This document shows, in pieces, positions 12,882 through 29,263 of a stretch of 32,000 bases of DNA (its first letter is position 1; each line of letters starts with the position of its first letter). The DNA comes from Raphidiopsis brookii D9 (GTDB lineage: Bacteria > Cyanobacteriota > Cyanobacteriia > Cyanobacteriales > Nostocaceae), in NCBI GenBank assembly GCA_000175855.1, contig ACYB01000035.1:330001-362000 (forward strand), in the 5' to 3' direction. The notes beneath the pieces are model-generated. The model was given only the letters and a program-made list of their open reading frames with translations. It had not been told where the DNA came from and did not search any database. The position numbers and the translations under genes are program-made.

Positions 12882-13352
12882 TTAAAACCATTTTCTTCTA
12901 ATTTTTCCTCTTTTGGTTAATTTGCCAAAATTGCTAAATTCAGGAAAATATATATCACCTTCAAAACTCCCTTCCACAATTGTTAAATATAGCTTGTGCG
13001 CAAGTTCCATAGTCTGAGTATAAATTTGTTCTCCACCAGCAATAAATATCTCTTCTGTTTCACACATTTTGCTCCATTTAATTGCTTCCTCCAAAGAATG
13101 GAAAACCACACATCCAGGCGCTTGATAGTCAGTGTTTTTAGTTACAATAAGATTAGTACGATTTGGTAATGGATGATTGAAGGTAGCATAGGTTTTACGA
13201 CCCATAATTACAGGATGTCGCCAGGTAATTTCTTTAAAATAACGTCCATCACTGGGAATATCCCAGGGAATACCCCCACGAATGTGTTCATTTTTGGAAT
13301 CAGCTAAAATACGATCTTGGGAAATGGCAGCTATAAGACTAATAAGAGTCAT
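12882..13352 (-). CDS. folA: Dihydrofolate reductase
   Basis: GGIPWDIPSDGRYFKEIT...HPVIMGRKTY and IFIAGGEQIY fit the DHFR signature regions. An AAGGAG Shine-Dalgarno sequence precedes the ATG. Confidence 0.85.
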   Translation of the reverse strand: MTLISLIAAISQDRILADSKNEHIRGGIPWDIPSDGRYFKEITWRHPVIMGRKTYATFNHPLPNRTNLIVTKNTDYQAPGCVVFHSLEEAIKWSKMCETEEIFIAGGEQIYTQTMELAHKLYLTIVEGSFEGDIYFPEFSNFGKLTKRGKIRRKWF

Positions 13353-13463: not shown

Positions 13464-14870
13464 CTAGTCTTTTTGAATCGCATAGCATAAGGTACCAATA
13501 AACCATCCTGAATGCTGAGGACTTTTGGCAATTTCCGATTGCATAGTTTCCGTTCTAACTTTTAGGGCGGTAAAAAATTCTTGTAAATTATAGGTTTTGG
13601 AACCATCTTCCTCTCCGGTTCTGGTTTGCCAATCCCATTCTTTCCACCAATTGGGAACCGCTAGGGAAGAATTAATTAGATCAAACTGTAACTTGTAAAT
13701 ACCTGGTTCAGATAATTTATCAGGTTGGATAACTGCTGCAAATTTTGCTTGATTTTCCTCGGGGAGAATTTGCCAATCCTTTAATTCTATGGATGAAATT
13801 ATTTCTGAATTGCTATCGACCTGTACAAAAGTCCTCTTAAATCTATCAAACTTTTCACCTTTTACCTGAGCTTTAATCGTACTTGGATCTAGCAGTAAAC
13901 TATATTCTGAATGGAGGAAACTCACACCATAGTTAATGGTTGAACTCTGCTTTAAAGAAGAACTCAATTTTAGCATTTCCTGGTTACTTTTACTAACCAC
14001 CACACCCCCATTAACTAGGGAAAAAGGTTCAGTAATACCCTGTGGTAAGGACATGGGTGTCGCATCTAAAACAGAGATTTTATCCAATATATGATCAGGA
14101 TGAAAAATCATGAACTTGCTGTTATCACTATTTAGCAAAGCCTGATTTGTATTGTATTTTTTCAGCTGACTGAAATAGTATTTAATATCGCCATAAGGTC
14201 CAACAAATAATACATAAAATGGACGAAACTTTGCCGATTCTTGACCTGTATTATAGTCAAAACTTCTTGGATTGTTACCCTCTAAATAAATCTTACCGTC
14301 AAATTCACTTTTAATAGCCCAAATTCCTACCGCATAATCTCGATTCTCAATATTATAATAAGTATTATTAATTAATTTATTTAGCTTGGTTACATCTCCA
14401 CTATTTTGCTGCAGATCAGTAATAATCACAGTCATTTTTTTCTGCTCCTTTTCCGGGGAAATAATAGCAGCATCTATGGGACTGGAAACTTCTGGAAACT
14501 GGTTACTACTGCCATCATAAAATGTGGTGGTAACTCCATAATTATAGTATTCACTACTGGTGATCTTTTGCATAGGGCTACCAATTCGATAATATTCAAC
14601 CGGCAATTTATCACTTAACTCAAATAAATTTCTGATTGACTTGAGAGTGCTAACGTAGTTGGTTTCTCCCCCTCTTACATATCCTAACATGGAGCCACTA
14701 CCATCCAAGTAAATGCTTACACTGAGGTTATTTGATTTACTAGTATTAGCATTCTCCGCTGGAGTATGGCCAAGTTCGCATTTCAACTCTTCTTTTTTGT
14801 TACAAGCCACTATAAAAAGACTAAGTAACAACATAATCAAGCCTTTGCGGAAGTATGCTTCATGTATCAT
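13464..14870 (-). CDS. Predicted lipoprotein with an N-terminal vWA-like (MIDAS) domain and a C-terminal region of unknown function
   Basis: Signal sequence with lipobox LFIVAC (Cys codon at 14802-14804). The DGSGS (DxSxS) motif is encoded at 14691-14705 and a later TVIITDLQQN strand fits a von Willebrand A fold. The gene is divergent from the 15055 operon. Confidence 0.6.
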   Translation of the reverse strand: MIHEAYFRKGLIMLLLSLFIVACNKKEELKCELGHTPAENANTSKSNNLSVSIYLDGSGSMLGYVRGGETNYVSTLKSIRNLFELSDKLPVEYYRIGSPMQKITSSEYYNYGVTTTFYDGSSNQFPEVSSPIDAAIISPEKEQKKMTVIITDLQQNSGDVTKLNKLINNTYYNIENRDYAVGIWAIKSEFDGKIYLEGNNPRSFDYNTGQESAKFRPFYVLFVGPYGDIKYYFSQLKKYNTNQALLNSDNSKFMIFHPDHILDKISVLDATPMSLPQGITEPFSLVNGGVVVSKSNQEMLKLSSSLKQSSTINYGVSFLHSEYSLLLDPSTIKAQVKGEKFDRFKRTFVQVDSNSEIISSIELKDWQILPEENQAKFAAVIQPDKLSEPGIYKLQFDLINSSLAVPNWWKEWDWQTRTGEEDGSKTYNLQEFFTALKVRTETMQSEIAKSPQHSGWFIGTLCYAIQKD

Positions 14871-14891
14871 TTTTAACTCCTATTTGTCAAA

Positions 14892-14919
14892 ATTATTTTA
14901 TTACTTATTATAAAATAAT
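14892..14919. promoter_or_regulatory. AT-rich inverted repeat in the divergent promoter region (candidate operator)
   Basis: The 10-bp arms attattttat (14892-14901) and ataaaataat (14910-14919) are separated by 8 nt. They lie between the divergently oriented genes starting at 14870 (minus) and 15055 (plus). Confidence 0.3.
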
Positions 14920-15054
14920 ATTAAGTAACTTTACCACCAGTTCTATTGCAAATCCAAGAGTAGTATGTTAGCATAAGGGGAAACAACCATACTGAGTTTC
15001 AACAAAACGAGAAAATATTACAATATAAAAAAATACAAAAAATAGGGAGGGTTA

Positions 15055-15525
15055 ATGAAGTCCTGGCAACAAAGGATTATTGCATTCGCTTTCATTGGTG
15101 GAATCGTGATGTTTTTAGGACAAAGGGTAGTCTATGAGAATCAAATTGTACCCATTCAGCAAGTGCCAGTAGACGCTTGGCTGGTTAGTGACTATACCAA
15201 TGCTGCTCTCGCCATGTTTTTTGCTTGTCTTGTTTCAACATTACTTTGGTGTGCATTGGCAGAAAAGAGTCGCTTCAATGATGGAGCCGCTACAGCTCGA
15301 TGGAGATTACTCTGGTGGTTATTGGGAATAATACCAATGGTGACCATTGCGATCGCGGTTTTTTACATTAATCGGAGTAGCGAAGCTCACTTTTCACTAA
15401 TGGCATTCTTTTTGCTGGATGCCATCTTACTGTACTGGTTACCAACAGCAACCAGCTCCCCTGAAGCAGTAAAATATGTTCCACCATTGGCCTTTTGGTT
15501 GCGTCATAAACTAATGGGAGACTGA
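15055..15525 (+). CDS. Small integral membrane protein (about 4 TM helices), first gene of the candidate operon
   Basis: A strong SD (GGGAGGG) lies 5 nt before the ATG. There are four hydrophobic segments. The stop is 6 nt before the next ATG. Confidence 0.7.
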   Translation: MKSWQQRIIAFAFIGGIVMFLGQRVVYENQIVPIQQVPVDAWLVSDYTNAALAMFFACLVSTLLWCALAEKSRFNDGAATARWRLLWWLLGIIPMVTIAIAVFYINRSSEAHFSLMAFFLLDAILLYWLPTATSSPEAVKYVPPLAFWLRHKLMGD

Positions 15526-15531
15526 GGAAAA

Positions 15532-16467
15532 ATGTCAATTTATGTGATTGGAATTGGTGGTACTGGGGCTAAATCTATTGAAGCAATAATTCAATTAACA
15601 GCTATTGGACTCTTTGGGGAACAATCTGTAAAGTTATTGTTTGTGGACACTGATGAAACCAATGGTAATGTTTCCAGAGCGTTGAATAGTTTAGACACTT
15701 ACAATAAATGTTATGAGCTAGGACTAAATGGTAAATACCCGTGGATGCGCACAGAGATTGAACCCTTCCCCCTATGGTCACCATTCGCCGATAATCTTAC
15801 TAACAAAAACCTGGCAGTTATTTTTAACTACAATCTGGTCAAAGAAAATGATGCAGCTCTGGGTAATTTATTTGATGTACTTTATACATCAAAAGAGCGA
15901 GAAGCCAACTTGGACGTGGGTTTTAGGGGGAGACCTAACATTGGTGCGGCGGTGATGAGCCAAGTAAAAATGGATACTATTGATAATGATTTTTGGGGAA
16001 GTTTGATGGGTAAAATTCAGCAAGATACGGGAGGAGGAAAGCGACCAAAAATCTTTTTATGTGGTTCAATTTTTGGGGGAACAGGAGCTTCAGGACTGCC
16101 AACCATTGGGAGATTAATTCATAATAGATTGGAAACACTAAAAATTAGGGAGAAAGTGGATTTAGGGTGTCTATTTGTCTTGCCTTATTTTAGCTTTACA
16201 CCTGATGAGAATTCAGAGGAAGTTTACGCCCGTTCTGAACAGTTTCTTTTAAACACAGAGGCGGCACTCCGTTATTATGGCAGTCAGCCCCAGGAAATAT
16301 TTGACGTGGTTTATTTATTGGGTAATCAGCAATTATCCACGGTCAAAAAGTTCAGTATTGGCAAAAATACCCAGTGTAATGATCCTCATTTTATTGAACT
16401 TTATGCCGCGTTAGCAGCGCGACAGTTTTCATTAAAAACTACCCCGGGACAAAAACGGTGGTATTAA
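15532..16467 (+). CDS. Tubulin/FtsZ-superfamily GTPase-domain protein (311 aa)
   Basis: Motif order matches FtsZ loops T1-T5: IYVIGIGGTGAKS (T1), FVDTDETNG, GFRGRPNIGAAV (T3-like), FLCGSIFGGTGASGLPTIGRLI (T4 signature region, nt 16075-16095) and FVLPYFSF (T5-like). A GAGGA Shine-Dalgarno sequence is present. Confidence 0.7.
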   Translation: MSIYVIGIGGTGAKSIEAIIQLTAIGLFGEQSVKLLFVDTDETNGNVSRALNSLDTYNKCYELGLNGKYPWMRTEIEPFPLWSPFADNLTNKNLAVIFNYNLVKENDAALGNLFDVLYTSKEREANLDVGFRGRPNIGAAVMSQVKMDTIDNDFWGSLMGKIQQDTGGGKRPKIFLCGSIFGGTGASGLPTIGRLIHNRLETLKIREKVDLGCLFVLPYFSFTPDENSEEVYARSEQFLLNTEAALRYYGSQPQEIFDVVYLLGNQQLSTVKKFSIGKNTQCNDPHFIELYAALAARQFSLKTTPGQKRWY

Positions 16468-17039
16468 TGAATAGAGAAAATTCAAGAAACCTAACCTGGA
16501 AGGATATTCCAGATATGCAGGAAGTTTATCCAGAAATTGTAAATGCTACTCGTTTTGCCCTGGTTTGGTTATCTAATATTGCCCCGGAATTAGAACAGGC
16601 TAAAAAGATGGGTGAAAAAGTTTTTAGAACTGGTGCTGGTAGAAGTTGGTTTGTTAAATTTTTCCCAGCTTCCAGAGGGATTTTAGGAGGAGGTAGTCAA
16701 CCAATCGTTGATTTCAACAACATTAAAGAACAAGAGGCAATACAAATAATTAGCAATTGGTGTAACGACTATTTACGCTGGCTATGGAGTATTCATCAGT
16801 GTCAGGAAGAGAGTATTCAATTATTTAATGGAGATTATCTAAATACAGGAAATCTCAATGCCGAAAATCTAGCCAATTTAATTATTGAACAAACCGATAG
16901 TCGAGATAGAAACAAAAAGTCCCTGGATACAATTCAGAAACTTAAAGAAAGATTAGATCCTCAATCTATACCTGCGCCCAATTTTGGGGTTATTGGGCTT
17001 GCTAAATCTTTGTATCATGTTTGTAGGTTAACAGACTAA
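16467..17039 (+). CDS. Hypothetical protein (190 aa), translationally coupled to the tubulin-like gene
   Basis: The ATG overlaps the upstream TAA (TAATG at 16465-16469). The track's GTG at 16458 is an alternative start. No motif was recognised. Confidence 0.55.
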   Translation: MNRENSRNLTWKDIPDMQEVYPEIVNATRFALVWLSNIAPELEQAKKMGEKVFRTGAGRSWFVKFFPASRGILGGGSQPIVDFNNIKEQEAIQIISNWCNDYLRWLWSIHQCQEESIQLFNGDYLNTGNLNAENLANLIIEQTDSRDRNKKSLDTIQKLKERLDPQSIPAPNFGVIGLAKSLYHVCRLTD

Positions 17040-17089
17040 GAAATACTTGATTGAAAATTGGTGAATTAAAAAAGCAAGGGAAACTATAT

Positions 17090-17545
17090 ATGACAAGTTT
17101 ATTGTTACCAAGACTCAAAGATGATTGCGATGTTAAATCTGGAGTTGCTGGTGTGTGGGATGCTCAAGCACCAAATACCTTTAATCAAGTTGCTTCCAGT
17201 TTGGATTACAAAGCACCGGGAGAAATCAAAAATATCAGCTCTGTCCCCACTATTTGGGCCCGTCCTTTATCAGTAGAAATGGCATTGCATAATGATAAGT
17301 ATCCAATTCGAGAACAAATCATTGTTCAGTGGCAAGGAATGTTAACGGTTTTAGCCTTAGCAGAAGTGCGCGGGTTCCCCATTAAAGCCCAACTTTTGGA
17401 ATTAGGAGCTAAAAAGGATACTGACAATTTTGCTCGTTCTTTATATGAACTGTTACCAGATGATGGCAATAGTATTTACAAATTCAGTAATAACAAAAAT
17501 CCTTGGGAAGATTTATATATTTTACCTGGGATAATTCTCCCGTAG
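17090..17545 (+). CDS. Hypothetical protein (151 aa); possibly the N-terminal part of the following large protein
   Basis: ATG at 17090 (TTG at 17051 in the track). The ORF ends at the TAG at 17543-17545 and overlaps the upstream-open frame of the next ORF. Confidence 0.5.
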   Translation: MTSLLLPRLKDDCDVKSGVAGVWDAQAPNTFNQVASSLDYKAPGEIKNISSVPTIWARPLSVEMALHNDKYPIREQIIVQWQGMLTVLALAEVRGFPIKAQLLELGAKKDTDNFARSLYELLPDDGNSIYKFSNNKNPWEDLYILPGIILP

Positions 17546-17547
17546 GA

Positions 17548-20337
17548 ATGACTTCTCCAAGCACCTTAGTTGTTCCCGCTGAAGAAGGTATTTGGAATGG
17601 TTTACCTTGGTGGAATTCTACTAAAATGAGGTTTGAACCAGTACATAAATATTTAAATGATATTGAAAAAGCCCAGCTAGTATTTTGGTTAGATAACCTA
17701 AAAACAGAAATTGGGAAGCACCAAGGTAATGCTAGAGCGGTAAACACTATAGTTGGGTTAATCAATGATTTTATTGGCAGTTTGTCAGTGGAATCTTTAC
17801 CCGATTTTCAATTGACAAGCAATACAACATTTTTTGATGTCCCCTTAAATAGGGGAGCTTTAGCTGGCATGAATCTTCCTGTGAAGGTTCAATGGAGAGA
17901 ATCTAATGTGCGGGTAATTCCCAGCATGAATAAAGCTAATGTTAGACCACTATTAATTGTGGATAAAGAGATAGCGACAAGCTGGAATGAGGTATTACAA
18001 AACATTTGGGTTCACGAGGGAAAAACCTTAGCAGCTTTGCGTCCTGAAGATATAGAAAGATGGAATAAAACTAAGGAAGTAATTTGCCTAGCATCACAGG
18101 ATTTATTCCTACCTGAATTAAAATTTATAGATAAAGAAGGCATTTTACCCGGTGCTTTGCTTCCTGATGGCGGACATTCCTTAGTATTTAAAGGTCAGCA
18201 TATTACGCCTTTAATTCCCATCAATCCAATTTTATTTAGCTATTTCACACCAGAAGATTTAGCCACGAAAATTATCAAGCTTCAACTAACTAGAAATAAT
18301 TCCGGTACATCCCTGGTTAGAGTAACTTTGTCTATCCCTTTATACGGAGTAAAACAAGGGCAAGGTTCCCAGAATTTTTATGTTTACAAAGAATACCCTC
18401 TCTTGGAAGAAAATATCATTACAGAAGTGCCAGTTTTGGAAATATGGCCGGATTTCCGTGTAGAGGGATGGCAAGAATATTATGGCTTTTACTATGATGC
18501 TGCTTTGGGGGAAGACACCTTTCAAGTCAGTTTTCCTGCTGCCAAAAACACGCATAGTTTTAAAGAAGGACGGGATGCTTATCAAGTAGTTCATTTAGAA
18601 GAGTTTCCATCTTTTATTGACTGTAAAGATATCCATAAAAATACCATTGGTCTGATTTTGCTATCAACTCCAGAACAAATTAACCTAGATGGTAAATGGG
18701 TCGTTGGTGTTGACTTTGGCACATCTTTTACCAACATTTACGTCAATAAAAATAGTAGAGTTGTGGAACGTCTGGGACGAGAAAATCTCCACCGTAAAGT
18801 TACAGATGTTGCTATTGATACTAGATTCCCTAGCCTGTTTGAATTTTTCATTCCCGAAAGCTTTATTCCTGTGGATAAGCCTTTTCCCCTATCGACGGTA
18901 TTAACAACTAGGGGGAAAACTAATGCTAGGGAAGAACAAGTAAGTCCAATTTTTGATGGGCGCATTTATAGTCCTAACCTTAAAGGTTTTTCTCCCCAAG
19001 AAACATGGATAAAAACCAACTTAAAGTGGTCAACTACTAATCTTACAGATAATGAATTATTCCTCAAACACTTGGCGTTACATATTACAGCTCTAGCTGC
19101 TAGTAATGGCGTAAAAGAAATTCAATGGTCTTTATCATTTCCCTCAGCCTTCTCCTCGAGAGAACAAAATAGATACGCCTCAACGTGGAAAAGATTATTG
19201 TCTAAATTAGACCAAACTACAGGAATTAGCCATGTTATTCCAGAAAAAGATGATCCTAATTATTTTCGGACTGAAAGTATAGCATTTGCCCAATACTTTG
19301 CTGAACAAGAAAAAGGGTGTGATTTAGTTGGCAGTACCTGTATTGATATGGGTGGTGGTACTGCGGATATTTCTATCTGGGAAGATGATAAACTCCTACA
19401 TCAGTGTTCGATTTTGTTAGCGGGTAGTGAACTGTTTTCCCAGTTCATAGAAATGAAACCTAACTTTTTGAAAAAACTGGATCCTGATATTAAAGATATT
19501 AATGTTTGGGAAAGGCTAAGAGGTGCGGCTTTTAATGCTAAATTAGATGTGTGGATGCGTTTAGAGGCAGCAAATTGGTTAGAAAATAAAAGGGATAGAT
19601 TTGAGGAGGATAAGGAATTTCAAGGTCTAATCCGTCTTATGGCAATTGGTATTGCTGGATTATATTTCTATATAGGTCAAATTCTCTTTGTTCTCTCTCA
19701 AGAGGGAAAATATTCAAGAGATGAAATTACCCGAGTTTATATTGGTGGGAATGGTTCCCGTTTATTACACTGGTTAGCAGAAGGTGGTGAATTTACTCGT
19801 CACTCAGAAATCAATGGTTTATTTAATCAAATGATGACTGTATCTGCCAAATTAGCAGACACGGAGGAACCTACACGTCTGAGTCAAAACCCTAAAGATG
19901 AAGCTGCTTGCGGTTTAGTTTTAAGAACAAGAGAATTAGAAGGTTTGGGTAAAAAGGATAAGGATCCCATTATTGCTGGTGAAGATTGTATTATCAGTGG
20001 TGAAAGGTTTGGTTACCAAGAACGGTTAGATTTTAGAGGTAACAGTGTTACCCAATATGAAATTCCATCCCTAGGTCAATTGAAGTTGTTTTTAGATGCT
20101 TTTCACATCGGTTTAGATGATTTGGGTATTGAAACCATAAAGCCATTAGAAAAATACCGGGTTAAAGACCCAGGTTCAGAATATAATGTGAAATTGTGGC
20201 GTGCAACAGAAAGGGATTTGAGAAATTCTCTTAATGCTATCCAGGGTAATATTGAAGACATTAGAGAAGAACCCCCTTTTATAATGGCATTAAAAGCACT
20301 TCTAAGAGTCCTAGGTAGAGAATGGGCTGGGAAATAA
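17548..20337 (+). CDS. Large protein: N-terminal ~390 aa unknown region plus a C-terminal Hsp70/actin-fold (ASKHA) ATPase domain
   Basis: Phosphate-1 WVVGVDFGTSFTNIY (nt 18703-18741), WSLSFPSAFSSREQNRY (compare Hsp70 ITVPAYFND), ESIAFAQYF, phosphate-2 CIDMGGGTADISIW (nt 19339-19380), LAGSELFSQF, and adenosine motif VYIGGNGSRLL (nt 19735-19767). The ATG at 17548 is 2 nt after the upstream TAG, and the frame is open from 17503. Confidence 0.75.
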   Translation: MTSPSTLVVPAEEGIWNGLPWWNSTKMRFEPVHKYLNDIEKAQLVFWLDNLKTEIGKHQGNARAVNTIVGLINDFIGSLSVESLPDFQLTSNTTFFDVPLNRGALAGMNLPVKVQWRESNVRVIPSMNKANVRPLLIVDKEIATSWNEVLQNIWVHEGKTLAALRPEDIERWNKTKEVICLASQDLFLPELKFIDKEGILPGALLPDGGHSLVFKGQHITPLIPINPILFSYFTPEDLATKIIKLQLTRNNSGTSLVRVTLSIPLYGVKQGQGSQNFYVYKEYPLLEENIITEVPVLEIWPDFRVEGWQEYYGFYYDAALGEDTFQVSFPAAKNTHSFKEGRDAYQVVHLEEFPSFIDCKDIHKNTIGLILLSTPEQINLDGKWVVGVDFGTSFTNIYVNKNSRVVERLGRENLHRKVTDVAIDTRFPSLFEFFIPESFIPVDKPFPLSTVLTTRGKTNAREEQVSPIFDGRIYSPNLKGFSPQETWIKTNLKWSTTNLTDNELFLKHLALHITALAASNGVKEIQWSLSFPSAFSSREQNRYASTWKRLLSKLDQTTGISHVIPEKDDPNYFRTESIAFAQYFAEQEKGCDLVGSTCIDMGGGTADISIWEDDKLLHQCSILLAGSELFSQFIEMKPNFLKKLDPDIKDINVWERLRGAAFNAKLDVWMRLEAANWLENKRDRFEEDKEFQGLIRLMAIGIAGLYFYIGQILFVLSQEGKYSRDEITRVYIGGNGSRLLHWLAEGGEFTRHSEINGLFNQMMTVSAKLADTEEPTRLSQNPKDEAACGLVLRTRELEGLGKKDKDPIIAGEDCIISGERFGYQERLDFRGNSVTQYEIPSLGQLKLFLDAFHIGLDDLGIETIKPLEKYRVKDPGSEYNVKLWRATERDLRNSLNAIQGNIEDIREEPPFIMALKALLRVLGREWAGK

Positions 20338-20465
20338 ATTAGATGTTACCTGGAGGCTTTAATTTTATTAAAGCGCCATTGATAAATAGACTTAACTAAA
20401 TTGAGTAAATCCAATTGCTCGCTTACTTCCTTAAACCTATCCCTTGCTGAAGTTAGAGGTTGAAA

Positions 20466-21320
20466 ATGAAACACTTAAAATGCCCTGTTTGTGACTGTGA
20501 ATACAGTAAAGAAGTAAATCAGGTTTGTCCAACTTGCTCTTGGCGCATTATATCATATCCCTTATCTTATTCATATAATCTAAGTTTAATGGGAGCAAAA
20601 AGACAGGAGGAGATATTAGAATGGGAATGGGCTAATAAGTGGGCTAAAGCAATGTGGCAAAAATTATGTGAATTAAATGAAGAAAATTTGGTGCTACGCC
20701 AAAAGAATGATTCATTATCGGAAAAACATTTACAAAGTTTGCAGGACATACATAGTAATACTCAACATTTACCGGAAATATTAAGTATTTTACGCCAAAT
20801 CAGTGAAAAATACCAAAGAATTGACACTTTTTCTGACCCTTCTCAACTCCATGGGGAATCGGAGCAAATAGGTGAACAGAAAAATTACTTTTCAACTGAT
20901 CAAAAACAGTGCAGCGATGATTATATAGATGATTATATAATTGATGACCCACAAGTAATTAGTTTAGTGGAAACTTATAATAGTCATGGAGATTTTCTGG
21001 ATAAAATAGAAGTTTCTGAAACAGAAGATAGCAAGTCCCATCGTTGGTGTGGTGGTAAGGATCCGGCAATTTTTGAAGCTAATCACAAAAGTAGGGGAGA
21101 TTATTGGATTATTGATAATCAATATTTAGTGCCAAAATACGGGCAAAAGATTAATCAGCATAGTTATGAAACTATATCCATATTGTTTGAATGCTTAAAT
21201 TATCACTATAACGATTCCGTTGGTTTAAGGAGTATGATATTAGTTAAACCTGCTAAGGTTTCTCCCATTCATGATCAAGAAAAATGGAAATTACAAGACA
21301 CTGGAACTTTACAGTTTTAA
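20466..21320 (+). CDS. Zn-ribbon (CPVC...CPTC) plus coiled-coil protein with a C-terminal shared ~120-aa domain (paralog 1)
   Basis: N-terminal MKHLKCPVCDCEYSKEVNQVCPTCSW. The C-terminal domain (about nt 20946-21317) ends in LVKPAKVSP...KWKLQDTGTLQF. Confidence 0.65.
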   Translation: MKHLKCPVCDCEYSKEVNQVCPTCSWRIISYPLSYSYNLSLMGAKRQEEILEWEWANKWAKAMWQKLCELNEENLVLRQKNDSLSEKHLQSLQDIHSNTQHLPEILSILRQISEKYQRIDTFSDPSQLHGESEQIGEQKNYFSTDQKQCSDDYIDDYIIDDPQVISLVETYNSHGDFLDKIEVSETEDSKSHRWCGGKDPAIFEANHKSRGDYWIIDNQYLVPKYGQKINQHSYETISILFECLNYHYNDSVGLRSMILVKPAKVSPIHDQEKWKLQDTGTLQF

Positions 21321-21345
21321 TCAAAAACTAACCTTGGGGAATTAT

Positions 21346-22890
21346 ATGAAACTTATTAAGTATCACTTTTGCTTAACTCTGGCATTATCTGGCAAAATGC
21401 TCTTGGCCACACCACTTTATGCTACCGATATGGATAAACCGGTACAAACCCCAAACAACAATAGTGGCAATATTGAAGTTGTTAGTATCAATCACCAACG
21501 GAATATTCTAGAAAAATTTGCAGGTCTAAAAAATGCAGTAAAGTCCTTAAATCAGGACCTAAAAATTTTTGTTCAAGACAAGAAAAATACTGGAAGTTTA
21601 AATTCTAAAAAAGTTATTAGCCAAATTAATCAGTTAAAGCAAGAAGTTGCTAAATTATCTCTAACTCCCCAGTTATCTCCTTCAGTCAAAAGGAGTAATA
21701 GTATAATTAAAGAACTTGAACGTACTATGAAATATCTAGAAGACGGATTGAAAAAAAATGGAGTAACTGGAATACAAAAGTATTTGGGCTTTTTTGCCAG
21801 GAGAAGAGTAAATAACAAATACTATGGAAATTTTGGAGAGACAACACAGGAAGAAATAGAGAAATTTACTAATAAAAAAATCCAGGAACTGGAAAAAGAA
21901 ATTAAAATTATTAGTTCTTTGACTCCTAAATCTTTAACTGCTAGTAATAGCAAAAAACTTGTATTAAGTAATAGCAGTAATGTTAGTAATATTGATGGTA
22001 ATATTAACAATGATAGTAATAGTGATAAGGTTATTAACCCAAATTCTCAGCTATATAATTCGTCCAATAATTCAGAAGAGATGGCAGCACTTAAAAGAGA
22101 TTTATCTCGGATGGGTCTCATAATAGTCGTTTTATCTCTAATGTTTGCAGTTTTTGCTATTGTCTGTCTTTATAAACTTTATGAAGTTTTAGAAAACCCA
22201 GATAACCTTAACAGACTGATGAAGAATAATCAGGATATTAAGAATATTTACCAAGAGTTGAAAAATCTTAGTGGTAGACTAAAGAAACTTGAAACCTATC
22301 GGCAAAGTTTAACTGGTAATCCCAGTCCCAACTCAGATAAGTCAGATCAGTCCTCTAAGTCTCAACTTGATCAATTTTCTGCAAGTTCCCAAATTACAAA
22401 ACAAGTTAATCCAATTAATTCGGTTAATCGAGGTAAACCTCAAAAACCAACAATGGGTACCTCGTATAAGTTACACAAATTGTCAGGATCATTAGAGTCA
22501 AATAAAGAGTCAAATAGTGTTGCTAATCCCGGAAATCAATTGGTACGGGAATATAATAGTGGCGCTAGGTCACTAGCAAATACGGCAATTATTGTATCAG
22601 AAAGTGAACTTACAGCTGAACAACGTCGTCTTGGTCGTGATAGTCAACCTATTTTAGAGCCAAATAACCGGGGTAATTATTGGATTATTAACCATGGTGA
22701 TATGGATTACCTGGTTCCTAAACCGACAATGAAAGTTAATAATCATAATTATAACACCATGTCTAGACTTTTTAATTGTTTGGAATATGACCCTAACTCT
22801 AGTAAGTCTTTTAAACTGATTAACCCAGCAAAAGTTTCCCCAATGGGTGAAAAATGGCAGTTAGTCGAGGAGGGGGAATTACAATTTTAG
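21346..22890 (+). CDS. Bitopic membrane protein: signal peptide, coiled-coil and low-complexity ectodomain, one TM, then the cytoplasmic shared ~120-aa domain (paralog 2)
   Basis: ATG at 21346 with signal-like MKLIKYHFCLTLALSGKMLLATPLYA. The TM segment MGLIIVVLSLMFAVFAIVCLY is at nt 22111-22173. The C-terminal domain (nt 22537-22887) ends in LINPAKVSPMGEKWQLVEEGELQF. The track's 21271 start overlaps the previous gene and is unlikely. Confidence 0.65.
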   Translation: MKLIKYHFCLTLALSGKMLLATPLYATDMDKPVQTPNNNSGNIEVVSINHQRNILEKFAGLKNAVKSLNQDLKIFVQDKKNTGSLNSKKVISQINQLKQEVAKLSLTPQLSPSVKRSNSIIKELERTMKYLEDGLKKNGVTGIQKYLGFFARRRVNNKYYGNFGETTQEEIEKFTNKKIQELEKEIKIISSLTPKSLTASNSKKLVLSNSSNVSNIDGNINNDSNSDKVINPNSQLYNSSNNSEEMAALKRDLSRMGLIIVVLSLMFAVFAIVCLYKLYEVLENPDNLNRLMKNNQDIKNIYQELKNLSGRLKKLETYRQSLTGNPSPNSDKSDQSSKSQLDQFSASSQITKQVNPINSVNRGKPQKPTMGTSYKLHKLSGSLESNKESNSVANPGNQLVREYNSGARSLANTAIIVSESELTAEQRRLGRDSQPILEPNNRGNYWIINHGDMDYLVPKPTMKVNNHNYNTMSRLFNCLEYDPNSSKSFKLINPAKVSPMGEKWQLVEEGELQF

Positions 22891-23007
22891 GTTATGGTCC
22901 CAGTTATAGTTGTTATATTTATAGTATTAAGGCGCTTGGCTTGATAATTTTTTTTTGAGAAACAGATTTTTCTAGAATAACTTTGTTAACAATTGGAGAT
23001 TTTAAAT

Positions 23008-23895
23008 ATGGTTGATTTAAATGATATTGTTCATAGAATCGAAGAAATAGAAAATCACTTACTAATGTTAGCTGACCGCGTACAAGATGACTCAGTTATG
23101 GTAACTGGTGCTTGGAAAGTGCCAAAAATTATCCCCACAAATATATCTGAACTGGAAATAATAAAAGTTTATAATGATGTACCTAAAGTTTTATTTAAAA
23201 ACTCAATTGTTACGGAGTTAACCGAAGAAAGTTATCGAGAAGATAACCGAGATCAATCAATTATCTTGGAATTTGATCAATATGGTAAATATTGGTTAAT
23301 CGTCTCAGATGAGAATAATGTTTTTGTTTTACCTGCAATGGATATCAAGTTACACATTTATAAGCTAAAAAGCATGGCTAAGGTATTTGATTTTCAGGGC
23401 ACTCCCTCTATGGAAAATCATTGTCTGTTAATTAAACCTGCAAAGGTTCAAAGTTTACCTAGTGGGAGAGAATGGAAACTAGAACAAAAGGGAATTCTAG
23501 AGTTTACTAGTAATGTTCATCAAGATTCGTTGAGAAATTTCTTTTATACCTTACAGGATAGTCAAGCAAATACCAATTTAGAAATACTCAAAATTAATAA
23601 GCAATTAAGTCAAATTGAACTGCAATTACAACAGGTTCCTGAAGAGAGTCAAAATATAGGTTGGCAAGTTAACATATCAGAAACCATTAAAGATAACCAA
23701 GCAAATACCAATTTAGAAATACTCAAAATTAATAAGCAATTAAATCAAATTGAACTGCAATTGCAGGAGTTCTCTCAACGGTTTCAAGACTTACAGTATA
23801 AACTTACAAAAATGTCAGTTGATATTAAAGATTATTTTGACCTACAAGTAGATTTACTTAAGGTCCGTTTAGAATCCTTGGAAAATATAAAGTGA
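23008..23895 (+). CDS. Soluble coiled-coil protein with the shared ~120-aa domain in the centre and a duplicated C-terminal coiled-coil unit (paralog 3)
   Basis: The domain lies at about nt 23152-23505 (GKYWLIV...LLIKPAKVQSLPSGREWKLEQKGILEF). It is followed by two copies of QANTNLEILKINKQL(S/N)QIELQLQ. Confidence 0.6.
   Translation: MVDLNDIVHRIEEIENHLLMLADRVQDDSVMVTGAWKVPKIIPTNISELEIIKVYNDVPKVLFKNSIVTELTEESYREDNRDQSIILEFDQYGKYWLIVSDENNVFVLPAMDIKLHIYKLKSMAKVFDFQGTPSMENHCLLIKPAKVQSLPSGREWKLEQKGILEFTSNVHQDSLRNFFYTLQDSQANTNLEILKINKQLSQIELQLQQVPEESQNIGWQVNISETIKDNQANTNLEILKINKQLNQIELQLQEFSQRFQDLQYKLTKMSVDIKDYFDLQVDLLKVRLESLENIK
23563..23762 (+). repeat. Intragenic direct repeat: two 65-bp copies with a 135-bp period
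   Basis: Positions 23563-23627 and 23698-23762 are identical except for one position (g/a). The repeat is in frame (45 aa period). Confidence 0.9.
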
Positions 23896-23932
23896 ATCCC
23901 TCTACAAAACTTCACAATTAATCTAATCCACC

Positions 23933-23958
23933 GGGGAAAGATTTTTAACTTTCTCCCC
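23933..23958. terminator. Hairpin between convergent genes (possible bidirectional terminator)
   Basis: ggggaaag (23933-23940) pairs with ctttctcccc (23949-23958) with one bulge. No clear U-tract is present on either strand. Confidence 0.25.
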
Positions 23959-23993
23959 TGTGATACGATTTGACACAACCTTTATTTACCATT

Positions 23994-24877
23994 CTAGTCA
24001 TTATCCCAGGCCAACTTAGCTGCACCTACCATACCTGCACTATTACCCAATTGTGCTGGTAAAATTTGTAGACCCATACGAGAACTTGGTAAAACACGTC
24101 TTTCAATTTCTTCTTGCATTGCTGGTAAAAAATACTCGAAACTAGCACTAATACCACCACCAATAATAATTGCTTGGGGGGTAAGTACATATATTAAACT
24201 GGTTAAACCAATGCCCAGGTCTCTACCATATTCTTGCCAAAAAGTCAAGGACTGAATATCACCTTGTTTAGCCAATTCCCCTAGTCTAGCTGGGTCCTTT
24301 CCTGTGCGACGATGAATAGCACCAATGGAGGTGTATTGTTCTAAAGAACCTTGATTACCACTGTTACATGATGGCCCATTAGGATTAAGAGTAATTAGTC
24401 CTAGTTCCCCTGCTGCACCTTGATGACCAACAAATAGTTTGCCATGCAAAATAATAGCTCCACCCACACCGGTTCCCAAGGTCAACAAGATTAAGTTTTG
24501 AAAATCACGCCCTGCACCTAACCAAGCTTCTCCTAATCCTGCGCAATTGGCATCATTGGCAAGAATTGTGGGTATTCCCGTACGGTTTTCTAACCATTCT
24601 GCTAATGGTACATTGTCCCATCCCTCAAGATTGATGGCCACTTTGGCAACTCTCCCCGTTGCATCCACAGGTCCTGGAGTTCCTACCCCCATGCCTAGGA
24701 TTCTATCATTCTGCTCAATCAGGGAATTTATCCCCCTAACATTGTAGATAATACAGCTTCTGGAGTCGCTGGTTTAGGAGTCTGTAATATTATAGTTTGT
24801 AAGCAGTTACCATTAGGATCAAATACGCCTAGTTTTATGGATGTTCCACCTATATCAATACCAATTACCACTTCCAT
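23994..24877 (-). pseudogene. ROK-family sugar kinase (glucokinase-like) interrupted by a 1-nt frame break in a C5/G5 homopolymer
   Basis: The N-terminal 49 codons (24877-24731: MEVVIGIDIGGTSIKLGVFD...) end at a TAA at 24728-24730. The downstream frame reads ...GINSLIEQNDRILGMGVGTPGPVD...ANDANCAGLGE. One extra base in the run at 24732-24736 would join the two frames. Confidence 0.8.
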
Positions 24878-29148: not shown

Positions 29149-29240
29149 TCAAAACTAGTGATATATTCTAGTTGTGTGTGAGGAGCAAATTTCAAGAAGC
29201 GCTTAGGGTGGAAACACGGCAACACTCCTGGGCGCTTTTT
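29149..29240 (-). ncRNA. Candidate Yfr1-like small RNA (strand assignment uncertain)
   Basis: The minus strand reads GCUCCUCACACAC (complement of 29176-29185 = CUCCUCACAC), a 10/11 match to the conserved unpaired Yfr1 element ACUCCUCACAC. It is flanked by two hairpins (29198-29236 and 29153-29173), as in the published Yfr1 architecture. Against this reading, the larger hairpin pairs better on the plus strand. Confidence 0.35.
29198..29240 (+). terminator. Rho-independent terminator on the plus strand
   Basis: AGCGCUUAGGG (29198-29208) pairs with UCCUGGGCGCU (29226-29236) over 11 bp, including three G-U pairs that become C-A mismatches on the other strand. A UUUUU run follows through 29240. 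Confidence 0.6.
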
Positions 29241-29263
29241 GATTGTCTAGCTTTAGTCAGAAC

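What the first reader, a model, noticed from the sequence alone, without database searches (positions are those of the whole stretch)
13464..23895. Candidate undescribed system: tubulin-like GTPase plus giant Hsp70/actin-fold ATPase operon with a vWA lipoprotein and three domain-sharing partner proteins
Nine consecutive genes without a housekeeping assignment lie between folA and a ROK kinase. The core is five same-strand ORFs with operon-like junctions. There is a 6-nt gap at 15525/15532 and a TAATG stop-start overlap at 16465-16469. A gap of 11 to 50 nt follows 17039, and the junction at 17543-17550 is either TAG-GA-ATG or a frame overlap. In order the ORFs encode a 4-TM protein, an FtsZ/tubulin-superfamily GTPase domain, two small unknown proteins, and a protein of ~930 aa (about 1090 aa if fused). 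The C-terminal half of that large protein carries all Hsp70/actin ATPase fingerprints. A lipoprotein with a vWA MIDAS motif is transcribed divergently. Three more proteins follow on the same strand: one cytosolic Zn-ribbon, one N-out bitopic and one soluble coiled-coil. They share a single ~120-aa domain. The locus therefore combines a tubulin-fold GTPase, an actin/Hsp70-fold ATPase, and predicted periplasmic, membrane and cytoplasmic partners. I cannot assign this combination to any characterised system. One reading is an envelope-spanning cytoskeletal or membrane-remodelling apparatus. The other is an NTP-dependent conflict (anti-phage) system of the kind enriched in multicellular cyanobacteria, with the shared domain acting as a homotypic adaptor.
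Basis: partly seen in the sequence, partly recalled or inferred. Interest (0 to 1): 0.88.

Follow-up and report, generated by a model that had tools for sequence, protein, structure and literature searches.

The report
Tubulin-like plus actin-like envelope gene cluster
This is a real, widely conserved but never-studied gene cluster that pairs a tubulin/FtsZ-like GTPase with a giant actin/Hsp70-like ATPase and cell-envelope partners; it evolves fast, sits on plasmids in some strains, and is most likely an accessory (probably anti-phage) machine, though two of its genes look split here only because of sequencing errors.

Summary
The window comes from Raphidiopsis brookii D9. ORFs 15532-16467 and 16458-17039 are one ~502-aa Tubulin_2 gene. 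ORFs 17051-17545 and 17503-20337 are one ~1081-aa gene. Each is split by a 1-nt homopolymer indel that is absent from a 99.6%-identical strain.

The module is a vWA-like lipoprotein, a 4-TM protein, a tubulin-like GTPase, an ASKHA (actin/Hsp70-fold) ATPase and 1-8 proteins sharing a ~120-aa domain. It is conserved in at least 196 species genomes (the best 80 almost all named cyanobacteria), in Acidobacteriota and in many metagenomes. Outside cyanobacteria it usually also carries a ZorA/ZorB-like proton-motor pair.

Natural fusions (tubulin-like+ATPase, ATPase+shared domain) argue for one complex. The cluster also lies on plasmids, occurs twice in some genomes, and diverges far faster than its flanks (46-77% versus 91-97% identity).

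No characterised system matches. The nearest are the computationally predicted FtsZl1-vWA and tubulin/Hsp70 conflict systems.

My best reading is an envelope-linked conflict system (confidence ~0.5). The main rival is membrane remodelling.

The parts
13464..14870 (-). Gene 1: a 468-aa predicted lipoprotein (CRD_02229). It has a signal peptide and lipobox LFIVAC (Cys23, nt 14802-14819), a MIDAS-like DGSGSM motif (nt 14688-14705) and a VIITDL motif (nt 14412-14429). It is probably a divergent vWA domain followed by a beta-rich C-terminal region.
   Evidence: ORF. N-terminal hydrophobic segment. C23, D56, S60, M61, G63 and D152 are invariant (T151 >=90%) in 45 homologues. Homologues lie next to the cluster in 40/56 cyanobacterial loci and 28/30 other loci. 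The vWA fold is unproven.
14871..15054 (.). Divergent 184-nt intergenic region between the lipoprotein gene and the + strand genes. It contains one promoter-like site at 14884-14911 (+).
   Evidence: 10/12 match. The scan found no more sites than shuffled sequence, so this is weak.
15055..15525 (+). Gene 2: a 156-aa membrane protein with four predicted transmembrane helices.
   Evidence: segments 8-26, 50-68, 85-103, 111-129. A homologue lies immediately upstream of the tubulin-like gene in 64/69 cyanobacterial loci and 32/43 other loci.
15532..17039 (+). Gene 3: a ~502-aa tubulin/FtsZ-superfamily GTPase (Pfam Tubulin_2) with a helical C-terminal domain. In this window a missing A at 16450 (A5 instead of A6) splits it into ORFs 15532-16467 and 16458-17039. 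Loop motifs: T1 at 15550-15573, T3 at 15919-15945, T4 at 16075-16095, and a possible T7 (NDPHFIE) at 16378-16398.
   Evidence: Pfam. Homologues of ~500 aa. Indel. AF2 model pLDDT 83.4, pTM 0.88. Foldseek top hits are tubulin, FtsZ and PhuZ. Family-wide invariant loops. Coordinates.
17090..20337 (+). Gene 4: a ~1081-aa protein. The N-terminal ~540 aa have an unassigned fold. The C-terminal ~550 aa are an ASKHA (actin/Hsp70-fold) ATPase, starting at about nt 18690. A missing T at 17519 (T4 instead of T5) splits it into ORFs 17051-17545 and 17503-20337. Motifs: phosphate-1 at 18709-18735, connect motif at 19273-19299, phosphate-2 at 19342-19374, a Gly-rich hydrophobic helix at 19636-19695, and the adenosine motif at 19741-19767.
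   Evidence: Homologues of 1080-1095 aa. Indel. AF2 pLDDT 85.5. Foldseek hits to Hsp70 NBD, Hsp110, MreB and ParM at E down to 2.5e-7. Motifs. Invariant D/G/K/E residues in both cyanobacterial and other branches.
20460..21320 (+). Gene 5: a 280-286-aa soluble protein with an N-terminal Zn-ribbon (CPVC...CPTC, nt 20481-20537), a coiled-coil-like middle and the shared domain at its C terminus (nt 20946-21317).
   Evidence: 44/198 shared-domain proteins in related loci have an N-terminal CxxC...CxxC.
21271..22890 (+). Gene 6: a ~514-539-aa bitopic protein. It has a signal-like N terminus (nt 21346-21423), a long polar, coiled-coil-like region that is probably periplasmic, one TM helix (nt 22111-22182) and the shared domain at its C terminus (nt 22525-22887).
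   Evidence: In 72/76 TM-containing shared-domain proteins the domain follows the last TM helix.
22993..23895 (+). Gene 7: a ~300-aa soluble protein with the shared domain near its N terminus (nt 23140-23511) and a C-terminal coiled-coil-like region containing an internal repeat.
   Evidence: Orthologue in CENA303.

Best explanation
The seven genes encode one multi-protein, envelope-associated NTPase system.

Shown:
- A cytoplasmic tubulin/FtsZ-superfamily GTPase and a giant actin/Hsp70-fold ATPase are encoded side by side in almost every locus and are fused into one polypeptide in some organisms.
- The ATPase is likewise found fused to the ~120-aa shared domain.
- A lipoprotein with a MIDAS-like motif and a small 4-TM protein are nearly always encoded alongside.

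Inferred:
- The lipoprotein (periplasmic side) and the 4-TM protein form the envelope-facing part.
- The GTPase and ATPase form the nucleotide-driven cytoplasmic core, arranged somewhat like the FtsZ-FtsA pair.
- The variable shared-domain proteins (Zn-ribbon, bitopic, coiled-coil and, elsewhere, WD40 fusions) act as interchangeable adaptors. They dock on the ATPase through the shared domain and link it to the membrane or to targets.
- In most non-cyanobacterial versions a ZorA/ZorB-like proton-driven stator with a long cytoplasmic coiled-coil tail supplies the envelope link. In cyanobacteria the bitopic shared-domain protein may do this job.

Most likely role (inferred): an accessory biological-conflict system, such as anti-phage or anti-mobile-element defence. 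An envelope disturbance would trigger nucleotide-dependent assembly of the tubulin-like/actin-like core. That assembly, rather than a classical enzyme toxin, would be the output, or it would recruit one.

The splits of two genes in this window are most likely homopolymer sequencing errors, not biology.
For: One system:
- In 79 cyanobacterial loci the tubulin-like gene is adjacent in 70/73, the 4-TM gene in 64/69, the lipoprotein gene within 4.5 kb in 40/56, and a shared-domain gene directly downstream in 59/68.
- In 49 further loci (Acidobacteriota MAGs and metagenomes) the tubulin-like gene is adjacent or fused in 43/46 and the lipoprotein gene is upstream in 28/30.
- Tubulin-like+ATPase fusions: P0287, P0300, L139, L140.
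- ATPase+shared-domain fusions: P0321, P0335, P0373, P0274, P0353.

Active NTPases:
- The T1, T3 and T4 loops are invariant in 96 tubulin-like sequences.
- The phosphate-1 and phosphate-2 Asp/Gly residues, a Gly of the adenosine motif, and the Lys and Glu residues are invariant in both branches of the ATPase family.

Accessory or conflict character:
- Against another Cylindrospermopsis genome with the same downstream synteny, the flanking genes are 91.5-96.8% identical. The lipoprotein is 86.5%, the 4-TM, tubulin-like and ATPase proteins are 74.7-77.2%, and the three shared-domain proteins are only 46-50%. The number of adaptor genes also differs, 4 instead of 3.
- The number of shared-domain genes ranges from 0 to 8 per locus, and 7/94 are fused to WD40 propellers.
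- Three genomes carry two divergent copies.
- The full cluster sits on a 47.5-kb mobilizable plasmid of Gloeothece verrucosa PCC 7822. A divergent type sits on large Picosynechococcus plasmids.
- In co-directional (non-cyanobacterial-type) loci, 15/22 carry a MotA_ExbB+coiled-coil protein and an OmpA/MotB-like protein. Their best defence-library matches are ZorA and ZorB (ZorB E=3e-17).
- McrBC-like, GmrSD, HNH and SNase genes flank three of the first five non-cyanobacterial loci.
- One homologue carries an N-terminal trypsin-like peptidase plus a VMAP-M1 domain typical of predicted conflict systems.
- Kaur et al. 2020 predicted tubulin/vWA and Hsp70 modules as conflict systems.

Sequencing errors: all five 1-nt differences from a 99.6%-identical strain lie in homopolymer runs, and they also break the ROK kinase gene and change the end of folA.
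Against: - No core protein matches any PADLOC defence model.
- No nuclease, protease, TIR or other toxic effector is conserved in the cluster.
- A Pfam survey of 91 neighbouring ORFs in non-cyanobacterial loci found mostly housekeeping families. In the window the flanks are folA, a DEAD-box helicase, a ROK kinase and RelA/SpoT.
- The ATPase tree is largely coherent at family level within cyanobacteria. The cluster is also retained in the small Raphidiopsis/Cylindrospermopsis genomes. Both points would suit a physiological role.
- MotAB-like stators also power non-defence machines such as Tol-Pal, TonB and gliding, and cyanobacterial loci lack them altogether.
- No phage-challenge, expression or localisation data exist.
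- No protein-protein contact was modelled.
- The vWA fold of the lipoprotein is unproven.
Confidence: 0.5

Rival explanations
1. The cluster encodes a physiological membrane-remodelling or envelope-maintenance cytoskeleton. The tubulin-like GTPase and actin-like ATPase would polymerise at the inner membrane, as FtsZ and FtsA do. They would be coupled to the periplasm through the lipoprotein, the 4-TM protein and the bitopic adaptor, or elsewhere through a Tol-Pal-like MotAB/OmpA module. The job would be to shape, repair or vesiculate the envelope. This is the role Makarova and Koonin proposed for FtsZl1-vWA-OmpA operons.
For: - The tubulin-like protein belongs to Pfam Tubulin_2, the FtsZl1 family. 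That family's operons were predicted to act in membrane remodelling and include vWA, OmpA/MotB and, in Magnetospirillum, an Hsp70-like protein (PMC2875224).
- There is no toxic effector in the cluster.
- The flanks are housekeeping genes.
- The phylogeny is coherent at family level.
- The weak best sequence hits of the ATPase are to FtsA and MreB.
- The components are predicted to span periplasm, membrane and cytoplasm.
Against: - The cluster is patchy in distribution. The scan found a relative in only 196 of the species genomes it covered.
- It is plasmid-borne in several strains and duplicated in some genomes.
- Its proteins are far more diverged than the flanking housekeeping proteins between close relatives. 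The adaptors are at 46-50% identity and differ in copy number. That is unusual for a conserved structural machine.
Confidence: 0.3
2. The cluster encodes an envelope-spanning surface machine for adhesion, gliding or export. It would be analogous to the myxobacterial Agl-Glt gliding complex, which combines a TolQR/MotAB-like motor, an actin homologue, a small GTPase and a vWA-domain lipoprotein adhesin. That comparison comes from my own knowledge and was not tested here.
For: - The parts list is similar: a MIDAS-motif lipoprotein, an actin-fold ATPase, a GTPase, and in non-cyanobacteria a MotAB-like stator with an OmpA domain.
- One neighbour carries peptidoglycan-binding domains.
Against: - No homology to Glt/Agl, type IV pilus or secretion-system components was found.
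- The cluster occurs in planktonic and unicellular cyanobacteria as well as filamentous ones.
- The GTPase is tubulin-like, not Ras-like.
- Fast divergence and plasmid carriage are not expected of such a machine.
Confidence: 0.08
3. In this particular strain the locus is a decaying remnant. The two frameshifts would then be real, and they inactivate the tubulin-like and ATPase genes.
For: - Both central genes are interrupted in the deposited sequence. They are annotated as separate hypothetical proteins, CRD_02231 (311 aa) and CRD_02234 (929 aa).
- Some other deposited strains also list ~925-928-aa versions of the large protein.
Against: - Both breaks are single-base length changes in A5/A6 and T4/T5 runs.
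- The same kind of change also hits the ROK kinase gene and folA within the same 20 kb.
- There are no other disabling mutations, and the coding sequence is otherwise 99.6% identical to an intact copy.
- From my own knowledge, the D9 genome was produced by pyrosequencing, which is prone to exactly this error.
Confidence: 0.12

Closest known systems
FtsZl1 (Pfam Tubulin_2) - vWA - OmpA/MotB operons, predicted membrane-remodelling system (Makarova & Koonin 2010, PMC2875224)
   Same: - A highly diverged tubulin/FtsZ-superfamily GTPase that hits Pfam Tubulin_2.
- An adjacent secreted or membrane protein with a MIDAS motif.
- Many lineage-specific membrane partners.
- OmpA/MotB-family proteins in non-cyanobacterial versions.
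- One listed operon (Magnetospirillum amb2961) even has an Hsp70-like giant protein.
- The system is uncharacterised experimentally.
   Different: - The FtsZl1 proteins described there are ~900-1100 aa with a long coiled coil. The cyanobacterial ones listed (Ava_1848, alr2043, Tery_1707) lie at other loci.
- The protein here is ~500 aa with a compact helical C-domain and no coiled coil.
- The giant ASKHA ATPase, the 4-TM protein and the shared-domain adaptor family are constant here and are not part of the 2010 description.
- The P-loop GTPases and protein kinases frequent in those operons are absent here.
GAP1-N2 / DO-GTPase-centred conflict systems with tubulin+vWA or Hsp70+GrpE themes (Kaur, Burroughs, Iyer & Aravind 2020, PMC7159879)
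   Same: - They combine tubulin-superfamily, vWA and Hsp70-superfamily proteins in variable multi-gene neighbourhoods.
- They are interpreted as NTP-dependent, assembly-based conflict systems enriched in multicellular bacteria.
- One homologue of the ATPase here carries a trypsin+VMAP-M1 module from that world.
   Different: - Those systems are defined by one or two TRAFAC-clade GAP1-like GTPases and an FNIII-repeat protein. Neither is present here.
- Their tubulin and Hsp70 themes are described as non-overlapping and mainly in Firmicutes and Actinobacteria. Here both folds are always together, and the hosts are Cyanobacteria and Acidobacteriota.
- The Hsp70 there is a true chaperone with GrpE and DnaJ. 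Here only the nucleotide-binding fold is recognisable.
Zorya anti-phage system (ZorAB motor plus soluble effectors; Hu et al., PMC11946911)
   Same: - Most non-cyanobacterial versions of this cluster end with a MotA/ExbB-type protein carrying a long cytoplasmic coiled-coil tail and a MotB/OmpA-type peptidoglycan-binding protein with the conserved TM aspartate.
- The best defence-library matches of these two proteins are ZorA and ZorB.
- The overall logic is similar: an envelope-anchored motor paired with soluble cytoplasmic partners.
   Different: - There is no ZorAB-like pair in the window or in 79 cyanobacterial loci.
- There is no ZorC/D/E/F/G homologue.
- The soluble partners are a tubulin-like GTPase and an ASKHA ATPase, not a DNA-binding protein and a nuclease.
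- The ZorA matches are weak (E about 1e-5 to 1e-8).
FtsZ-FtsA pair of the bacterial divisome
   Same: - A tubulin-fold GTPase encoded next to an actin-fold ATPase.
- The weak best sequence matches of the ATPase's phosphate-2 region are to FtsA and MreB.
   Different: - No family-level membership: FtsA scores 17 bits against a cut-off of 31.8, and ftsZ TIGR00065 scores 14.5 against 295.
- The ATPase is three times larger, with an unrelated N-terminal half.
- The cluster is accessory and sometimes plasmid-borne.

Membership tests
FtsZ/tubulin superfamily (Pfam clan; family Tubulin_2 = FtsZl1) | Profile match above the curated threshold | tested here: met
   PF13809 Tubulin_2 scores 31.6 bits against a cut-off of 27, E=1.3e-7. 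PF00091 Tubulin is below its cut-off (22 vs 33). Most homologues carry precomputed PF13809.
FtsZ/tubulin superfamily (Pfam clan; family Tubulin_2 = FtsZl1) | Glycine-rich nucleotide-binding loops T1 and T4 (GGGTG[ST]G-type signature), plus T3 | tested here: met
   GIGGTGAK, GFRGRPNIG and FGGTGASG are present. Their Gly, Thr and Pro residues are >=93% conserved in 96 family members.
FtsZ/tubulin superfamily (Pfam clan; family Tubulin_2 = FtsZl1) | Tubulin/FtsZ GTPase fold | tested here: met
FtsZ/tubulin superfamily (Pfam clan; family Tubulin_2 = FtsZl1) | Canonical FtsZl1 architecture: GTPase domain, extended coiled coil and alpha-helical C-domain, ~900-1100 aa | tested here: not met
   The protein is ~500 aa and the model shows no long coiled coil. 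It is a distinct short subfamily.
FtsZ/tubulin superfamily (Pfam clan; family Tubulin_2 = FtsZl1) | GTP-dependent polymerisation with a catalytic T7 residue supplied in trans | not testable with these tools
   Q281-x-N283...E289 is conserved. It could be a T7 equivalent, but no structural superposition or assay was possible.
ASKHA (actin/Hsp70/sugar-kinase) ATPase superfamily | Phosphate-1, phosphate-2 and adenosine motifs | tested here: met
   VDFGTSFTN, IDMGGGTADIS and IGGNGSRLL are present. The key Asp and Gly residues are invariant in 56 cyanobacterial and 52 other homologues.
ASKHA (actin/Hsp70/sugar-kinase) ATPase superfamily | Two-lobed actin-like fold | tested here: met
   Foldseek against the PDB gives 140 hits at E<=1e-3. 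The top ones are DnaK, Hsp110, BiP nucleotide-binding domains, MreB and ParM at probability 1.0, with TM-score normalised to the target of about 0.5. Only viral Hsp70 homologues were found in BFVD.
Hsp70 chaperone family proper | Family-level profile match and a substrate-binding domain with J-protein/GrpE partners | tested here: not met
   There is no Pfam or NCBIfam HSP70 hit. The best hits are FtsA at 17 bits (cut-off 31.8) and MreB at 11 bits. There are no DnaJ or GrpE genes in the cluster. Profile searches against PDB sequences give E>=0.047.
von Willebrand factor A (vWA) domain | MIDAS motif DxSxS ... T ... D | tested here: met
   The D-G-S-G-S motif has D56 and S60 invariant. The downstream T151-D152 pair is conserved (T151 >=90%, D152 invariant) in 45 homologues.
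von Willebrand factor A (vWA) domain | Profile or fold match to vWA | tested here: inconclusive
   The window protein has no Pfam hit at E<=1. VWA is the commonest hit among 45 homologues, but in only 2 of them, best E=0.0028. hhalign against one genuine vWA protein aligns the MIDAS strand at E=0.12. The PDB profile search was negative.
Zorya defence system | ZorA (MotA-like with a long tail) plus ZorB (MotB/OmpA-like) encoded in the system | tested here: not met
   Both are absent from the window and from 79 cyanobacterial loci. They are present in 15/22 co-directional non-cyanobacterial loci.
Zorya defence system | Type-specific soluble effectors ZorC/D, ZorE or ZorF/G | tested here: not met
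   No PADLOC hit was found for any core protein, in the window or in an Acidobacteriota locus.
GAP1-N2 / DO-GTPase conflict systems (Kaur et al. 2020) | One or two TRAFAC-clade GAP1-like P-loop GTPases and an FNIII-repeat protein | tested here: not met
   No P-loop GTPase or FNIII family was detected in any of the nine ORFs at E<=1. The definition is taken from PMC7159879.

The most novel reading that the evidence does not exclude
This would be a new class of envelope-triggered immune system in which the effector is itself a cytoskeleton. An envelope sensor would consist of a MIDAS lipoprotein, a 4-TM protein and either a ZorAB-type proton motor or a bitopic adaptor. On phage attack it would trigger co-assembly of a tubulin-like GTPase and an actin/Hsp70-like ATPase. 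Fast-evolving adaptors carrying a new ~120-aa docking domain would direct that assembly. It would also link the old 'FtsZl1-vWA' orphan operons to Zorya-type signalling.
Probability: 0.35. Interest if true: 0.9.

Novelty: new variant of a known kind. Interest (0 to 1): 0.72.

Why it matters
The large Tubulin_2/FtsZl1 branch of the tubulin superfamily has had no known function since 2010. This work defines a compact, sharply conserved seven-gene module with clear testable partners: a giant actin-fold ATPase, a new docking domain, a MIDAS lipoprotein and a 4-TM protein. It adds natural fusions that predict who binds whom.

The module is also tied to ZorAB-like proton motors outside cyanobacteria. 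It occurs on plasmids of Picosynechococcus strains, whose close relative PCC 7002 is, to my knowledge, genetically tractable.

If it is a defence system, it would be the first to use tubulin- and actin-fold NTPases together, and it would be relevant to bloom-forming toxic cyanobacteria and their phages. If it is a remodelling machine, it would be a second FtsZ/FtsA-like pair with a non-division role.

Either way the question is now directly testable.

Tried and rejected
- PADLOC models on all nine ORFs and on an Acidobacteriota copy gave no core hits.
- NCBIfam gave only sub-threshold noise.
- Profile searches of the tubulin-like, ATPase, lipoprotein and shared-domain alignments against all PDB sequences found nothing significant.
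- A 5.8-billion-protein search with the shared-domain alignment found nothing at E<=1e-3. The domain is too short for that database size, so the search was wasted.
- The promoter/terminator scan found no more sites than in shuffled sequence, so it does not settle operon structure.
- I looked for ZorAB-like genes in the cyanobacterial loci and found none.
- I followed up ARC6-like IMS and Zn-ribbon neighbours seen in a Pfam survey. The Zn-ribbon ORFs I could trace were in one locus (L092), and an IMS-domain gene is annotated near the Picosynechococcus plasmid copy. I did not establish these as a recurrent part.
- The ORFs directly downstream of the ATPase gene in loci without a recognised adaptor had no Pfam match.
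- No phage record encodes a relative of the ATPase.
- I considered and rejected translational coupling at the TAATG junction.
- I considered and rejected chance adjacency of unrelated genes.

Full report
**Source and state of the sequence.** Exact look-ups place the window in Raphidiopsis brookii D9. The DEAD-box helicase is EFA72849, the lipoprotein CRD_02229, the 311-aa ORF CRD_02231 and the 929-aa ORF CRD_02234.

The gene model is wrong in two places:
- The 311-aa tubulin-like ORF has about 2000 relatives, and the best ones are ~500 aa. The closest (P0001, 96% identical, 502 aa) runs straight through the 'TAATG junction' and covers ORF 16458-17039 as its C-terminal domain.
- The ~1090-aa homologues of the large protein likewise cover ORF 17051-17545 plus ORF 17503-20337.

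Cylindrospermopsis raciborskii CENA303 is 99.6% identical to the window over 20.4 kb and has intact 502-aa and 1081-aa genes. The alignment shows five 1-nt differences, and every one is a length change in a homopolymer:
- 16450 (A5/A6), which splits the tubulin-like gene.
- 17519 (T4/T5), which splits the large gene.
- 24731 (C5/C6), which truncates the ROK kinase.
- 12911, which alters the end of folA.
- 12753 and 22949, both apparently outside the listed ORFs.

This is the signature of homopolymer sequencing error rather than gene decay. From my own knowledge, D9 was pyrosequenced. The cluster therefore has seven genes, not nine, and the two 'small unknown proteins' are fragments.

**What the proteins are.**
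- Tubulin-like protein. The N-terminal ORF passes the Pfam gathering score for Tubulin_2 (31.6 vs 27 bits). An AlphaFold2 model built on 50 homologues is confident (pLDDT 83.4, pTM 0.88). Its top Foldseek hits in the PDB are almost all tubulins, FtsZ, PhuZ and OdinTubulin at probability 0.93-1.0, with low TM-scores, so it is a very diverged member. The T1, T3 and T4 nucleotide-binding loops are essentially invariant in 96 family members, as is a Q-x-N...E segment that could correspond to T7. Residues ~310-502 form a helical domain with no recognisable relative.
- Large protein. Its model (pLDDT 85.5) gives 140 PDB hits at E<=1e-3, led by DnaK, Hsp110 and BiP nucleotide-binding domains, MreB and ParM. 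The phosphate-1, phosphate-2 and adenosine motifs are present, and their key residues are invariant in both a cyanobacterial alignment and a non-cyanobacterial one. It is not an Hsp70 family member: there is no HSP70 profile hit, no substrate-binding domain, and no DnaJ or GrpE. Its N-terminal ~540 residues match nothing.
- Lipoprotein. It has a lipobox cysteine, a DxSxS motif and a downstream T-D pair conserved in 45 homologues. A vWA fold could not be shown. The window protein has no profile hit, 2 of 45 homologues hit weakly, and hhalign aligns only the MIDAS strand at E=0.12.
- 156-aa protein. It has four hydrophobic helices.
- Three downstream proteins. They share a real ~120-aa domain. 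It is C-terminal in the Zn-ribbon protein and in the bitopic protein, and N-terminal in the coiled-coil protein.

**Conservation.** A scan of one genome per species found 196 genomes encoding a relative of the large protein, and nearly all of the best 80 are named as cyanobacteria. In those loci:
- The tubulin-like gene is adjacent in 70/73.
- The 4-TM gene is present in 64/69.
- The lipoprotein gene lies within 4.5 kb in 40/56.
- A shared-domain gene lies directly downstream in 59/68.
- There are 0-8 shared-domain genes per locus.

A profile search of 1.84 billion cluster representatives found 2141 clusters (824 at E<=1e-30). Of the top 150, 61 are closer to non-cyanobacterial copies. Named examples are Acidobacteriota MAGs, including Chloracidobacterium and Pyrinomonadaceae.

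The non-cyanobacterial loci and a metagenome scan show a constant array. The order is lipoprotein, 4-TM, tubulin-like, ATPase and shared-domain protein(s), usually followed by a MotA_ExbB protein with a long coiled coil and an OmpA/MotB-like protein. In 49 such loci:
- The tubulin-like gene is adjacent or fused in 43/46.
- The lipoprotein gene is upstream in 28/30.
- A ZorAB-like pair is present in 15/22 loci where the lipoprotein gene is co-directional.

The best defence-library matches of the pair are ZorB (E=3e-17) and ZorA (E about 1e-5 to 1e-8). The B subunit keeps the transmembrane aspartate. Cyanobacterial loci have no such pair.

**Evidence for one complex.** Natural fusions join the tubulin-like protein to the ATPase (P0287, P0300, L139, L140). 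Others join the ATPase to the shared domain, at its C terminus (P0321, P0335, P0373) or at the N terminus of a shortened paralogue (P0274, P0353). Among 198 shared-domain proteins:
- 38% have a TM helix, and the domain almost always follows the last one (72/76).
- 22% have an N-terminal Zn-ribbon.
- 25% carry two or more copies of the domain.
- 7 of the 94 scanned are fused to WD40 propellers.

I infer that the shared domain is a cytoplasmic docking module for the ATPase. The proteins carrying it would be interchangeable adaptors, loosely comparable to J-proteins for Hsp70 or membrane tethers for FtsZ/FtsA.

**Housekeeping or accessory?** Several results point to accessory.
- Against another Cylindrospermopsis genome that shares the downstream ROK, cobalamin-binding protein and RelA/SpoT synteny, those flanking proteins are 91.5-96.8% identical. 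The lipoprotein is 86.5%. The 4-TM, tubulin-like and ATPase proteins are 74.7-77.2%. The three adaptors are 46-50%. That genome has four adaptor genes instead of three, and a third strain has the cluster elsewhere.
- Even between D9 and CENA303 the adaptor genes carry in-frame 12-nt indels.
- Three genomes hold two divergent copies, and the Nostocales copies fall into two lineages.
- The full cluster lies on a 47.5-kb mobilizable plasmid of Gloeothece verrucosa PCC 7822. A third, very divergent type lies on large plasmids of Picosynechococcus strains.
- McrBC-like, GmrSD, HNH and SNase genes flank three of the first five non-cyanobacterial loci.
- One cyanobacterial homologue has an N-terminal trypsin-like peptidase plus VMAP-M1 module.

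Against a defence role:
- No core protein matches PADLOC.
- No toxic effector is conserved.
- A survey of 91 neighbouring ORFs is mostly housekeeping.
- The tree is coherent at family level.
- MotAB-like stators also drive non-defence machines.

**Comparison with what is known.** Literature searches found no description of this architecture.
- Tubulin_2 corresponds to the FtsZl1 family of Makarova and Koonin (PMC2875224). They predicted a membrane-remodelling system with vWA, OmpA/MotB and GTPase partners. Their cyanobacterial examples are ~900-1100-aa coiled-coil proteins at other loci, and one Magnetospirillum operon includes an Hsp70-like giant. A later survey still treats Tubulin_2 proteins as divergent orphans (PMC9871819).
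- Kaur et al. (PMC7159879) predicted conflict systems built on GAP1-like GTPases, with either a tubulin+vWA theme or an Hsp70+GrpE theme, mainly in Firmicutes and Actinobacteria. The present cluster has no such GTPase or FNIII protein and always carries both folds.
- Zorya (PMC11946911) shares the ZorAB-like motor, but only in the non-cyanobacterial versions, and none of its effectors.

I therefore file this as a new variant of a computationally predicted, experimentally uncharacterised kind. It is not a member of any named system.

**Verdict.** The folds, the shared domain and the conservation are real. The gene count and the junctions are artefacts.

The best-supported mechanism is an envelope-linked complex. 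Its cytoplasmic core is a tubulin-like GTPase and an actin-fold ATPase, served by variable adaptors. It is most likely an accessory conflict system (confidence about 0.5), with membrane remodelling as the main rival (about 0.3).

The steps that are shown are the fold assignments, the gene linkage, the fusions, the mobility and the fast divergence. The steps that are inferred are the topology of the complex, the adaptor role of the shared domain, the trigger and the output.

Noticed in passing
window 24731 (and ORF 23994-24692, - strand): The ROK-family kinase gene is also truncated here, to a 232-aa ORF compared with 294 aa in strain CENA303. The cause is a C5/C6 homopolymer difference. A T-run difference at 12911 changes the 3' end of folA (156 vs 166 aa). 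The assembly appears to carry systematic homopolymer errors, so other split genes in this genome should be treated with suspicion.
   Followed up: yes
window 20916-20939 and 23012: The only multi-base differences from the 99.6%-identical strain inside the adaptor genes are two in-frame 12-nt indels: a perfect tandem duplication GATGATTATATA in gene 5 and a 12-nt deletion in gene 7. There is also a 3-nt indel at 18534 in the ATPase gene. This suggests repeat-mediated length variation in the adaptor genes.
   Followed up: partly
window 20000-24000: G+C drops to 0.31-0.35 across the three shared-domain genes, compared with 0.40-0.44 in the flanking housekeeping genes and 0.37-0.40 in the core genes. 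This could reflect foreign origin, fast evolution or Asn/Ser/Lys-rich low-complexity coding.
   Followed up: no
window 19636-19695: The ASKHA domain contains a strongly hydrophobic, glycine-rich helix (LMAIGIAGLYFYIGQILFVL; hydropathy 1.97). Its Gly and Tyr residues are conserved in both cyanobacterial and other homologues. It might be a membrane-inserting or oligomerisation helix, but burial in the model could not be checked.
   Followed up: partly
window 21968-22026 and 22494-22516: There are an imperfect 30-nt tandem repeat and a 12-nt repeat inside the predicted periplasmic/linker part of the bitopic adaptor, a region rich in Asn and Ser.
   Followed up: no
window 23500-23800: The coiled-coil tail of gene 7 contains the segment 'QANTNLEILKINKQL(S/N)QIELQLQ' twice, about 45 residues apart, so it is an internal duplication (seen in the translation).
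   Followed up: no
window 29172-29243 (+): An Rfam Cyano-1 RNA motif scores above its gathering score (50.7 vs 41 bits). It lies outside the cluster.
   Followed up: no
L001 18323-20521; also L007, L059, L070, L080: Some loci carry an extra ~730-800-aa paralogue of the ATPase that lacks the first ~350 residues. In L059 it is fused to a shared domain. So there is a second, shortened ASKHA subunit in 5 of 47 loci.
   Followed up: partly
L152 1-6080 and L153 2651-6122: In other Cylindrospermopsis strains the cluster is preceded by arrays of Uma2-family (restriction-endonuclease-fold) genes, four in a row in L152. The upstream flank is thus variable while the downstream flank is conserved.
   Followed up: no
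P0237 (cyanobacterial metagenome protein, 1364 aa): This homologue of the ATPase has an N-terminal Trypsin_2 peptidase plus a VMAP-M1 domain. It could be a rare effector fusion or a gene-calling artefact.
   Followed up: no
L083 5555-6334 and L088 5538-6149: A staphylococcal-nuclease-like (SNase) gene lies directly upstream of the lipoprotein gene in two Acidobacteriota loci. It is on the same strand in one and the opposite strand in the other. It is a possible lineage-specific effector.
   Followed up: no
L150 17278-19116 and L092 4205-5513: Genes for ARC6-like 'IMS domain' proteins and Zn-ribbon proteins lie near two divergent copies of the cluster. ARC6/ZipN is an FtsZ-anchoring protein in cyanobacteria and plastids (my own knowledge). 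The link was too sporadic to call.
   Followed up: partly
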